A stretch of DNA of 64,000 nt from positions 21,576,001 through 21,640,000 of the forward strand of contig NW_026889774.1 of assembly GCF_033153115.1 (NCBI RefSeq), written 5' to 3'. How positions within the stretch are numbered: the stretch's first letter is position 1; each line of letters opens with the position of its first letter. The notes beneath the pieces were generated by a model. That model was not told the origin of the DNA. It searched no databases and saw only the letters and a program-made list of their open reading frames with translations. Made by a program: the position numbers and the translations under genes. Shown here in pieces: positions 53,763 through 57,248 of this stretch. The DNA comes from Saccostrea echinata. Lineage: Eukaryota.

Positions 53763-56236
53763 TGATTTTGCAAATTAATCAGTAGTTTACGAATCACAAG
53801 TAGAATACGATTCACAAGTTCACGAATGTGAATGACAACTTCTCGAATATAAATCACAAAGAGCAAGGCACAGTTTCAATAAAAAATTGGCTCTGTATTT
53901 TTCTAAAATACAAACGTTATGAAGGAAAATTAAAACTCATGTTTTCTTAATCGTTGAAATTCCAAAATCGTTTTTCTCATATGACTTCCTTCCGCTTACG
54001 TCATAAACGTTTATTCCACTGCCTAAAAGTATTCAAAATGAAATCAAAATCTCTTTTGTTAATATTAAGGTAGAGTGGTATATTTAATAATTAAGTTTAT
54101 AGATAAAAAAGGAAATTCTTAATTACTAAGAATTTTGTCTGGAATTTTGGGTTTTTTTTTTAAATGATCACTCTAACCACCATTTTTTAATTGAATGTAA
54201 TTACTGGGTTTTTTTCTGATATAAAATTGAAAATAGGAAATAATTTGCAATAATTAAACTGATTTAGCGTGAGGGTGAATGGGAAAGTATGACAGCTGCT
54301 CGGAAACATAGTATATTCTAGTATTTCCTCATACCATAATATTAAAAGGTAAGCATTCTTTAAATAATATCCTATATATACATGTGAGTACCTTGTATTG
54401 TAATGTACCAGTAATACGACAAAGGAAGTATATGAAAGGTGCAAAAACACTCGATATTAAATAGATGAATCTTTACAAAGATACGACCATAGATGATAAA
54501 AATAAATATGAATGAATTTTTCCCTTTCTTAACGATATGATAAATAACATGTGATTCAAATGGGCGTGTTTATTAGCGTTTCAGAAATTTTCTTCCGCTT
54601 CATATTGATTTTCTCTTTTTTTCAACACGTCAGATAAAATACAACTACCAAAATGTATCAACATAAACTTCTGAAATGGATTCAATGCCTTCCTATATAG
54701 AAACATGCGTACGATTTCGAGTTTTAACTCCTATAGTAACGATACTGTACAGAGAAGGTGTAATCTTTCGAGTATTGTTTTCTAGCGATGATCAAAATTT
54801 TAAGCAAATTATTATTTAAACTGACATAGTGAGTCAATATCATGTGTTTCTTTTAAGATAATTGTATTATATAAAAGCCAAAGAGCTATGAGAAATATGA
54901 ATACGGCAAAGTTTTGAGATCTCAACATTGGAGCAATCAAAAGTGAGGAATAAGTTCTGATCATCTTTATTGAAGATTATATCAAAATACACGGTCATCT
55001 GACATTTATACCTATGGAATTGACACCATGTTAACTTCAACTTTTCTGCGCATGTGTACCTTAAAGAGGTAGAAGTGAAGCAATATTTTCGTGTTGGGGC
55101 AAACTAAATTTATTTTTTACTTATATTTTTCTCCATGAAAGTATATTTTTTTAGGTTCTGAAACCTGTAATTTTCTGAAAACTAATACTTTCAAAAATTG
55201 AATAAAAATTGCATGTGTCTTGCAAAAATTCTACTTTTGTCAATTTTCCCGTTTTTCCGTCACGGTGTCTCTTTACATCTAATATTTTTTTCTATGTAAA
55301 TGTACAGTCAACGGTAAGAGTCCATACTGTATACAGCAGTCACAGTAGATCATTACCTACATCATTTATACCAAAGATTTTTACGCATGCGCAGCAAATA
55401 AGTTACGGACAACACGACTTTCAAATTCCATCGTACAGATACTGACATGCAGATAACAGGTTTGAAAATATCCTTTGGTTTGATTTGATTAAACAAAACA
55501 AAAAAAATCTTCCTTCAGGTTCATTGTTTACAAGTTACCCATGAACAAATCAAATGGTAATCCTCTAATCAAGGAAGGAGTTGGATTTTACTACATGGAC
55601 TCTGAAAACCCTTCTTTTTCCTTGTCCAATGCTGACATTCAAAAGAAGGGACACGCGTTGTACAACACCTTACAACAAGTTTATAACCAGGTATAATATA
55701 AACAGTACAAATCACACTCTTTCCTTCAACGAAGCTTTAGAAGAAAAACTCGGAACGTGGAAGCTTTGATTAAATATTTTAGTGCCTACGAACTGTTTTT
55801 TTTTTAAACTAAGAGATATATTAAAAACGAACTTATGTTTTATTTTACCAAATAAGTAGTATACGTAGCTGATTTAAGAAAGATATATTCAAAATGCGCA
55901 TGTGTTCATTTTATCAATAATCAGTAAATGTAGCTGATAAAAATTAACACAATTTTCAAATGTAGTAATGTCTAGTTGGTTTAGTAAGTAAGAAAAAATT
56001 GCTGTGTTAAAGGCGTTTTCTGTTGAATAAATTAATACTCACTACTTTCCTTAAAAAATAATTTCGACGTTGAATATGCAAAACAAAATTATATTTTCAA
56101 GATTTGCATTAATTTAATGAATGATAGCTTTTAATTTATAGAAGGACATTTTTAAAAATGCCTTTTTTAGTTGTAAGATGTGGAATTTTTGCACACGAGT
56201 ACTTTAATATTTCGGATTTCCAATGTTTCGGCATGA

Positions 56237-56280
56237 GCATCACTGAAAAGACATAATTTGTTGAAATGCGCATCTGGTGC
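56237..56280 (+). ncRNA. Hammerhead ribozyme motif copy 1 (core CTGAAAA, G8 changed)
   Basis: Stem I GCATCA/TGGTGC, stem II GAC/GTT, GAAA, palindromic TGCGCA stem III, AUC cleavage triplet ending at 56274. Confidence 0.7.
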
Positions 56281-56579
56281 ATCAAAATTGGTACCATGTA
56301 TGATTTACATTATAATCTCTGGGTCGAGGCCTCTGCTGGTGGACTGTTAGTCCCCAAGGGTCTCTACAACCCACTAGCTTAAATACTAGCTAGAAAATAC
56401 GGATATATATTTAATTGCTGTCGAAAATGAAGAAACTTATTTTAAAATTAAGGATTATCTCCCTCATGCATAGCTTTGATCCTTCTACGTATTTGGCTCC
56501 AGTCTTTGGCACCCCCTTTTTCAGCTCTTCAAAGTTTTTTCTTTATTAAATATTTCGGATTTCCAACGTTTCAGCATGA

Positions 56580-56622
56580 GCATCACTGAAGGGACATAAT
56601 TGTCGAAATGCCCATCTGGTGC
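56580..56622 (+). ncRNA. Hammerhead ribozyme motif copy 2 (core CTGAAGG, A9 changed)
   Basis: Stem I GCATCA/TGGTGC, stem II GAC/GTC, GAAA, TGCCCA, AUC ending at 56616. Confidence 0.7.
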
Positions 56623-57248
56623 ATCAAAATTGGTACCGTATATGATCTACATAGTATTGTTCAAAGGATCCAATAAATGTTTCGTTAGGTAACTTTTTAG
56701 TCTTTCATCCAAAAATGCAGCAATTGTTTGTTTCAGTATAAGTATTTATGACGTTTTTTTCAGAATGGACCACACAAATTTAAGTATGCCATGTACAATG
56801 ATCAGCCACCAAACCGAGATGATAGGTCTGAGGAAACTTTTAAAGGAAAAGGACATACCAAAGGTATATTAAACACGAGAACTCGCTATCATTATAGAAC
56901 ATTTGCTAGTAATTTGAGCTATAGTGATTTCTCCTTCTACTAGTTAAAACATACAAATTGACAATGCATTTTATCCGTACAGGCATGTATGCATTTGATG
57001 AGAAACAAGGATTCTGGCTGATATCAAGTGTTCCGAAATTTCCTGCTCCTCTATCACATGGTTACAACTATGAACAAGGACAAACAAGATTAGGACAGGC
57101 CATGATTTGTGTGTCCCTTAGCAGAAAATATCTAACAGTTATAGGTTAATAGAAGTTAGAAACTACTAAAAATGCATTACTTCCTAAATCTTACAAAAGA
57201 AACTGTGGGAAAAAATAGTCTGAGCTCTCTATGATCCGCTATTTATCG

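What the first reader, a model, noticed from the sequence alone, without database searches (positions are those of the whole stretch)
56205..56652. Retrozyme-like unit with two hammerheads inside a DNase II intron
Two minimal type I hammerhead motifs lie in ~105-bp direct repeats on the sense strand, with predicted cleavage sites 342 nt apart (56274 and 56616). This matches the non-LTR retrozyme architecture that yields small circular RNAs in metazoans, including mussels. Each copy has a different single core change (CTGAAAA, CTGAAGG), and their consensus restores CUGAAGA. The insertion is absent in gene 3, so it post-dates the duplication. An active sense-strand ribozyme would have cut gene 6 pre-mRNA, which may explain why both cores are mutated.
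Basis: partly seen in the sequence, partly recalled or inferred. Interest (0 to 1): 0.7.

Follow-up and report, generated by a model that had tools for sequence, protein, structure and literature searches.

The report
Dead hammerhead retrozyme in DNase intron
A 450-base repeat carrying two damaged self-cutting RNA motifs sits in an intron of a DNase II gene of what is probably an oyster; it is likely a dead copy of a very abundant "retrozyme" family, a kind already known from mussels, and ordinary mutation is enough to explain the damage.

Summary
Two type I hammerhead motifs lie in 108-bp direct repeats, with cut sites 342 nt apart, on the sense strand of a DNase II intron, and the paralogous intron lacks the insert. 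The family consensus has an intact core: 96-97% of DNA reads from a related organism carry G8 and A9, and 3 of 3 metagenome copies are intact. The family has an estimated 10,000-30,000 copies there. Corrections: the motif is the canonical metazoan type I form (helices 6/4/2 bp, palindromic loop), not the Penelope "minimal" form, and each copy has a second lesion. The idea that selection broke both cores is not needed: the 10 changes split 5/5 between copies, 5 of 9 substitutions hit CpG sites, and chance alone hits both cores with P = 0.17-0.34. Gene 6 has also lost its first coding exon. Cleavage and circles were not shown: the one raw RNA library gave about 28-fold fewer family reads than DNA and no piled ends. 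Verdict: a decayed member of the known non-LTR retrozyme class; modest interest.

The parts
56203..56652 (+). Whole insertion: one 342-nt unit plus a 108-nt terminal redundancy (about 1.3 units); non-coding, 37% GC; the left end is blurred over 56203-56209
   Evidence: longest stop-free frame 45 codons
56203..56310 (+). Direct repeat copy 1
56546..56652 (+). Direct repeat copy 2; ends 36 nt after the second cut site
56237..56280 (+). Type I hammerhead 1: G8 replaced by A (56248), helix II closing pair G-U (56262), palindromic loop 3 intact, predicted cut after 56274
   Evidence: sequence
56580..56622 (+). Type I hammerhead 2: A9 replaced by G (56592), loop 3 palindrome broken (56612), 1-nt loop 2 deletion, predicted cut after 56616
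   Evidence: sequence
56275..56616 (+). Predicted 342-nt monomer between the cut sites; fold z = -2.0; 72% identical (263 of 365 columns) to the 350-nt unit of L010
56320..56373 (+). Internal hairpin shared with L010: 21 predicted pairs, all kept in both, 1 with a change on both sides (two sequences only)
55519..55690 (+). DNase II-like gene 6, exon upstream of the host intron
56764..56863 (+). DNase II-like gene 6, exon downstream of the host intron (carries the first HxK motif)
54788..54829 (+). Start of gene 6: after two codons a 97-bp deletion (relative to gene 3, 25894-25990) removes the rest of coding exon 1 and its splice donor; the frame stops after 13 codons
26900..26925 (+). Empty site in the paralogous intron of gene 3

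Best explanation
This is a 1.3-unit copy of a very abundant hammerhead-bearing repeat family, likely a non-LTR retrozyme, that inserted into an intron of DNase II gene 6 after the gene duplication and has since likely decayed by ordinary, largely CpG-driven mutation until probably neither ribozyme cuts. Shown: the two motifs, their lesions, the empty paralogous site, the intact family consensus, high copy number in a related organism, and a shared 3' end 33-37 nt past the cut site. Inferred from published retrozymes: intact tandem copies elsewhere are transcribed, cut themselves (helped by pairing of the two palindromic loops), are ligated into circles of about 340-350 nt by a host ligase, and are reverse-transcribed by a Penelope-like element's enzyme. 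Copying starts about 35 nt past the junction and runs more than once round, which leaves the terminal redundancy. In this copy both lesions lie in the same strand segment of each core, so a two-ribozyme dimer could not complement them.
For: Architecture matches the canonical metazoan type I hammerhead of PMC4209133 (helix I 6 bp, II 4 bp, III 1-2 bp with a palindromic loop) and the unit size and low GC of non-LTR retrozymes in PMC7229834. Family letters in DNA run X22: G8 in 33,776 of 34,862 reads, A9 in 4,032 of 4,211, C11.1 in 33,911 of 35,414, palindrome G in 5,211 of 5,892. A core-free pattern found 15 metagenome loci; 2 are family members (3 motifs), all 3 with intact cores. L010 has the same 1.3-unit layout (350-nt unit, about 130-nt redundancy). 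X22 reads leave the element into unrelated AT-rich DNA at 56307 (5,231 reads, agreement 0.41) and 56311 (2,972 reads, 0.36), and 'go back' joints show head-to-tail units. Neutral decay: 10 differences in 101 columns, 5 per copy; 5 of 9 substitutions at CpG (12 of 101 positions; P = 0.002); P(both cores hit) = 0.17-0.34. The inter-copy helix III falls from -10.5 to -4.2 kcal/mol.
Against: No cleavage or circle was shown. RNA run X23 gave 207 family reads per million against 5,718 in DNA, with no pile of ends at the cut sites, which does not look like the abundant expression reported for retrozymes, though library type and tissue are unknown. Rfam has no hit even for intact copies. The 11 hammerhead pairs tested show no change on both sides among 5 sequences. 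No target-site duplication is recognisable. Neither raw-read run covers the flanks, so the family data come from other organisms than the window's. Sequence identity to the published mussel retrozyme could not be checked (supplement unreadable). The effects of G8A and A9G on rate are recalled knowledge, not tested here. Gene 6 exons 2-8 stay open, which has P = 0.005-0.32 under neutral decay of the element's age, so selection could have acted on the insert.
Confidence: 0.75

Rival explanations
1. Same origin, but selection removed ribozyme activity: the sense-strand hammerheads cut gene 6 pre-mRNA, so alleles with dead cores were favoured, or the cutting contributed to the loss of gene 6.
For: Both cores carry a change at a catalytic position; 3 of 10 changes fall in 28 of 202 core-related positions (1.4 expected). 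Gene 6 looks constrained for much of its history (dN/dS 0.30 against gene 3; exons 2-8 open). Intronic ribozyme cleavage is reported to lower splicing efficiency (PMC10274809, passage), and retrozymes are depleted in Xenopus genes (preprint 2026.07.22.740005).
Against: The excess is not significant (P = 0.15 wide core, 0.30 strict core) and chance hits both cores with P = 0.17-0.34. At the mussel rate of about 0.1 per minute only 0.4-5% of transcripts would be cut before polymerase reaches the next exon; at the coral rate of 0.8 per minute 3-32% (rough, with assumed elongation rates, and it ignores the time splicing takes). About 42-44% of Xenopus retrozyme copies still lie in introns. Gene 6 has an unrelated exon 1 deletion and an intact paralogue.
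Confidence: 0.12
2. The insert is a fragment of the pseudo-LTR of an autonomous Penelope-like element, or was copied from a linear uncleaved tandem transcript; no circle is involved.
For: A fixed 3' end with variable 5' extent fits target-primed copying. About 64% of ribozyme tails in X22 end rather than continue into another unit (rough, since the interior maps less well). Retrozymes and pseudo-LTRs are related in Xenopus, and Penelope-like insertions carry a 30-40 bp tail (PMC8557442, passage).
Against: The motif lacks the marks of Penelope minimal hammerheads (7-8 bp helix II, extra base after A9, little or no helix III). No reading frame in the insert. Reads upstream of the ribozyme mostly continue into the same unit (agreement 0.76) and loop back head to tail. 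No Penelope reading frame was seen beside L010 or L011.
Confidence: 0.1
3. One ribozyme, or a hybrid dimer, is still weakly active and tunes gene 6 expression or releases a 342-nt RNA.
For: All 11 helix pairs tested are kept in both copies; conserved intronic hammerheads exist in amniotes (PMC6155905, passage).
Against: Both cores are changed at conserved positions; the dimer helix is weakened; the insert is young, absent from the paralogue and drifting at CpG sites; gene 6 lacks exon 1.
Confidence: 0.03

Closest known systems
Non-LTR retrozymes of Mytilus galloprovincialis and other animals (Cervera and de la Pena 2020, PMC7229834; parts 1-4 of 6 of the main text read, supplement not readable)
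   Same: Type I hammerhead in short head-to-tail repeats; unit 342 nt (mussel about 350-390, a cloned one 353); GC 38%; non-coding; thousands of genomic copies; a bivalve host (inferred here).
   Different: This copy has two broken cores and only 1.3 units. Oysters are not named in the main text (0 hits for 'oyster' or 'Crassostrea'). The paper calls retrozyme sequences species-specific, whereas this family keeps 72% identity to the L010 unit and occurs in at least two other coded organisms. Circles and cleavage are shown for mussel, not here.
Penelope-like element pseudo-LTR hammerheads (Cervera and de la Pena 2014, PMC4209133, parts 1-2 of 4 read; Li, Clavereau and Pollet 2026 preprint, parts 1-3 of 5 read)
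   Same: Type I topology, palindromic loop 3 suited to dimer cleavage, more-than-unit insertions, short 3' tail.
   Different: Helix sizes are those of the canonical form, with no extra base after A9; there is no reverse transcriptase or endonuclease frame; repeats are 342 bp apart, not about 3 kb.
Newt satellite 2 and axolotl HHR_Amex2 repeats (as described in PMC7229834)
   Same: Unit of 330-350 bp; helix III of two base pairs with a tetraloop; expected to cut better as a dimer.
   Different: Different animal group; no sequence comparison was made; loop 1-loop 2 contacts were not tested here.

Membership tests
Type I hammerhead ribozyme | Conserved core CUGANGA / GAAA / UH, in the family | tested here: met
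   96-97% of X22 reads and 3 of 3 metagenome copies
Type I hammerhead ribozyme | Conserved core intact in this locus | tested here: not met
   G8A in copy 1, A9G in copy 2
Type I hammerhead ribozyme | Three helices with helix I open | tested here: met
   55 of 55 cells paired in 5 sequences, 11-44% when slid; no compensatory change
Type I hammerhead ribozyme | Match to an Rfam hammerhead model | tested here: not met
   No hit for the window or for intact L010 copies
Type I hammerhead ribozyme | Self-cleavage after C17 | not testable with these tools
   Needs in vitro transcription; fragmented cDNA reads keep no ends (table 6 empty)
Type I hammerhead ribozyme | Loop 1-loop 2 tertiary contacts | not tested
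   PMC7229834 says the mussel motifs lack most of these nucleotides
Non-LTR retrozyme | Canonical type I motif in head-to-tail units of about 150-450 bp, GC under 45-50% | tested here: met
   342-nt unit, 38% GC; 350 nt in L010; go-back joints in reads
Non-LTR retrozyme | Non-coding | tested here: met
   Longest stop-free frame 45 codons
Non-LTR retrozyme | Dispersed, multi-copy and mobile | tested here: met
   Empty paralogous site; heterogeneous 3' flanks and an estimated 10,000-32,000 motifs in organism B if its genome is 0.5-1.5 Gb; not counted in the window's own genome (none held)
Non-LTR retrozyme | Target-site duplication (only sometimes present) | tested here: inconclusive
   No clear duplication; 6 of 7 bases shared between target and element at the 5' junction
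Non-LTR retrozyme | Expressed as abundant unit-length circular RNA | tested here: inconclusive
   Family reads are present in RNA (2,643 of 12,771,440) but about 28-fold fewer per million than in DNA; library selection unknown
Penelope-like element pseudo-LTR | Minimal hammerhead: helix II 7-8 bp, extra base after A9, helix I 4-5 bp | tested here: not met
   Helices 6/4/2 bp, no extra base (sequence; definition)
Penelope-like element pseudo-LTR | Adjoins an RT/GIY-YIG reading frame | tested here: not met
   Not at this locus (flanks are DNase II intron) or at L010; L011 has a short RVT_1 fragment about 800 bp away, type not determined; other copies not testable

The most novel reading that the evidence does not exclude
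This locus belongs to an apparently undescribed retrozyme family shared by several bivalve lineages at 70-90% identity and reaching tens of thousands of copies, whose insertions end at a fixed point 33-37 nt past the ribozyme cut site. That end would be the footprint of reverse transcription primed at a defined site on a ligated RNA circle, would identify the Penelope-like partner, and would let thousands of sense against antisense intronic copies test whether genomes select against self-cleaving inserts.
Probability: 0.3. Interest if true: 0.5.

Novelty: new member of a known kind. Interest (0 to 1): 0.27.

Why it matters
The locus itself is one dead copy among probably thousands. Its use is as an entry to the family: how animal retrozymes are reverse-transcribed and which element moves them is still a hypothesis (PMC7229834 discussion; 2026 preprint), and a family with this many copies and a fixed 3' end makes both that question and the question of selection against intronic ribozymes testable by computation on any oyster assembly.

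Tried and rejected
Rfam scans gave no hammerhead hit for the window or for intact relatives, so they do not discriminate. No whole genome is held, so intact copies in the host were not counted. Pattern scans found 0 loci in viral contigs and 0 in prokaryote genomes; 13 of the 15 metagenome loci were chance matches without a core and were dropped. Monomer folding of the two motifs does not favour the hammerhead fold (z 0.58 and -0.86), and neither does the intact L010 motif. Of 24 listed runs, 4 were laid; the small word shares of the others are not used as evidence. Run X17 (RNA contigs) held only 3 short pieces. A polymerase III origin was considered and dropped because the unit holds three runs of 4-6 T. 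Chance origin was rejected (0 hits in 12 shuffles). Literature: searches listed no paper describing an oyster retrozyme; the C. gigas satellitome paper (PMC8268682, passages) does not mention ribozymes and its supplement had 0 hits for four motifs; the supplements of PMC7229834 and PMC11136912 could not be read and may list this family; Repbase and Dfam were not searchable. PMC10886601 (passages) was irrelevant. The search for exon-tethering papers found none. The earlier-findings look-up by sequence returned nothing. One search used a structure string one column off and is replaced.

Full report
Observation. The two repeats lie at 56203-56310 and 56546-56652 and are 89.8% identical over 108 columns. 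Each holds a type I hammerhead layout: a 6-bp helix I, the CUGANGA segment, a 4-bp helix II, GAAA, a 2-bp helix III closed by a four-base loop, and an AUC triplet. The predicted cuts follow 56274 and 56616, 342 nt apart. A relaxed descriptor finds these 2 sites and no other on either strand of the window, and none in 12 shuffles. Rfam gives no hammerhead hit here, but it also misses intact relatives, so that result is uninformative. Copy 1 has G8 replaced by A and a G-U pair closing helix II. Copy 2 has A9 replaced by G, a broken loop 3 palindrome and a 1-nt loop 2 deletion.

Setting. The window holds six tandem DNase II-like genes on the + strand; genes 5 and 6 are a duplicate of genes 2 and 3. 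The insert lies in the intron 55691-56763 of gene 6, in the sense direction. Gene 3 has an empty site. No clear target-site duplication is seen; the 5' junction shares 6 of 7 bases with the element's own internal sequence. Introns of genes 3 and 6 differ by 0.16-0.24 and dS is 0.31, whereas the two repeat copies differ by 9 substitutions and 1 indel in 101 columns, so the insertion is younger than the duplication, if the copies were identical when inserted. The host is probably an oyster: holders of the element include oyster and mollusc metagenomes, and the 166-bp tandem repeat next door has the monomer size of the oyster Cg170/HindIII satellite (PMC8268682 and PMC11136912, passages; sequence identity not tested).

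The family. A pattern that left the core free found 15 metagenome loci; 13 are chance matches and 2 are family members with 3 motifs, all with intact cores. L010 repeats the layout: a 350-nt unit, about 130 nt of terminal redundancy, 72% identity to the window unit (263 of 365 columns). Four of 24 listed runs were laid on 55480-57200 at 80% likeness. In both raw-read runs depth is confined to the element and is near zero on the flanks, so they come from another organism. In DNA run X22, 73,405 of 12,836,656 reads were laid, which gives about 10,000-32,000 motifs for an assumed genome of 0.5-1.5 Gb (a Hi-C library, so rough). The family letters are G8 in 33,776 of 34,862 reads, A9 in 4,032 of 4,211, C11.1 in 33,911 of 35,414 and the palindrome G in 5,211 of 5,892. 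Reads leave the element into unrelated AT-rich DNA at 56307 and 56311, 33-37 nt after the cut site, matching the end of this insert (36 nt) and of L010 (about 28-36 nt). About 36% of tails continue into a further unit, and go-back joints occur in both DNA and RNA. An internal hairpin keeps 21 of 21 predicted pairs between the window and L010, one with a change on both sides (two sequences only).

What kind of motif. PMC4209133 (parts 1-2 of 4 read) defines the canonical metazoan type I form as helix I 6 bp, helix II 4 bp and helix III 1-2 bp with a small palindromic loop, and the Penelope minimal form as helix II 7-8 bp with an extra base after A9. This motif is canonical. PMC7229834 (parts 1-4 of 6 read) places canonical motifs in non-LTR retrozymes and reports about 5,000 copies in mussel, in repeats of about 350-390 bp, cleaving at about 0.1 per minute and accumulating as circles. 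Its supplement could not be read, so identity with the mussel family is untested. The 2026 preprint (parts 1-3 of 5) derives retrozymes from Penelope pseudo-LTRs, sampled no mollusc, and found cleavage in only 1 of 9 elements tested.

Mechanism. Inferred: intact tandem copies are transcribed and cut, aided by pairing of two palindromic loops (-10.5 kcal/mol); monomers are ligated; a Penelope-like reverse transcriptase copies the template from about 35 nt past the junction. Because the insert crosses both cut sites, its template had those bonds intact, as a ligated circle or an uncut multimer; these data cannot tell which. In this copy the dimer route is closed as well: swapping partners exchanges only the 3' strands, both lesions stay in their own cores, and the mixed helix III is -4.2 kcal/mol. 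G8 supplies the general acid (PMC6155905, passage) and covaries with position 3; here position 3 is unchanged. That G8A and A9G strongly cut the rate is recalled knowledge.

Why both cores are broken. Polarised mainly with the family letters, the 10 differences split 5 and 5. Five of 9 substitutions fall on CpG sites, which make up 12 of 101 positions (P = 0.002), as expected from methylation-driven decay. Given 5 changes per copy, both cores are hit by chance with P = 0.17-0.34, and the excess in core positions is not significant (P = 0.15-0.30). A rough kinetic estimate puts cutting before the next exon at 0.4-5% for the mussel rate and 3-32% for the coral rate (elongation rates assumed, one from PMC10274809). 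Against my reading: gene 6 exons 2-8 are open with intact splice sites and both HxK motifs, dN/dS against gene 3 is 0.30, and staying open has P = 0.005-0.32 under neutral decay of the element's age (the indel rate rests on one event). Gene 6 was thus probably still constrained after the insertion, and selection is not excluded. Today gene 6 lacks almost all of coding exon 1 and its donor site.

Expression. RNA run X23 holds family reads (2,643 of 12,771,440), 207 per million against 5,718 in DNA, with mates on both strands in similar depth and no pile of ends. This neither shows nor excludes circles, since a poly(A)-selected, fragmented library would miss them and its preparation is not on record here.

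Verdict. A real, decayed member of a known class. I found no paper describing the family in oysters, with the caveat of two unread supplements and no access to Repbase. Interest 0.27.

Noticed in passing
window 21000-29600 and 47000-61400: A two-gene DNase II block was duplicated and seems to have lost opposite members: gene 2 has two in-frame stop codons (exon 1 near 21123 and the exon near 23597) where gene 5 has none, while gene 6 lacks coding exon 1 and gene 3 encodes an intact 338-aa protein. Gene 5 was not spliced and checked in full.
   Followed up: partly
window 55540: Gene 6 has an in-frame ATG early in exon 2 where gene 3 has a lysine codon; with exons 2-8 open and both HxK motifs kept, a signal-peptide-less DNase II is conceivable.
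   Followed up: no
window 54812-55272: About 460 bp present in gene 6 and absent from gene 3, directly after the exon 1 deletion; no second copy in the window.
   Followed up: no
window 57249-58312 and 38500-39930: 166-bp tandem arrays in opposite orientations inside introns of genes 6 and 4, of the size of the oyster Helitron-borne Cg170/HindIII repeat.
   Followed up: no
window 62253-62780 (-): Fragment of a reverse transcriptase (Pfam RVT_1, E 2e-11), type not determined.
   Followed up: no
L010 1-3606: The intact 1.3-unit element (732-1211) and about 650 bp of animal-like DNA sit between long open frames that look bacterial and have no Pfam match. Coverage is 3.7, so a chimeric assembly is more likely than transfer into a bacterium.
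   Followed up: partly
window 56374-56394; L010 about 925-944: A second short hairpin in the unit differs in sequence between the window, L010 and the read sets yet folds in the window and L010 (a UUCG loop in L010).
   Followed up: no
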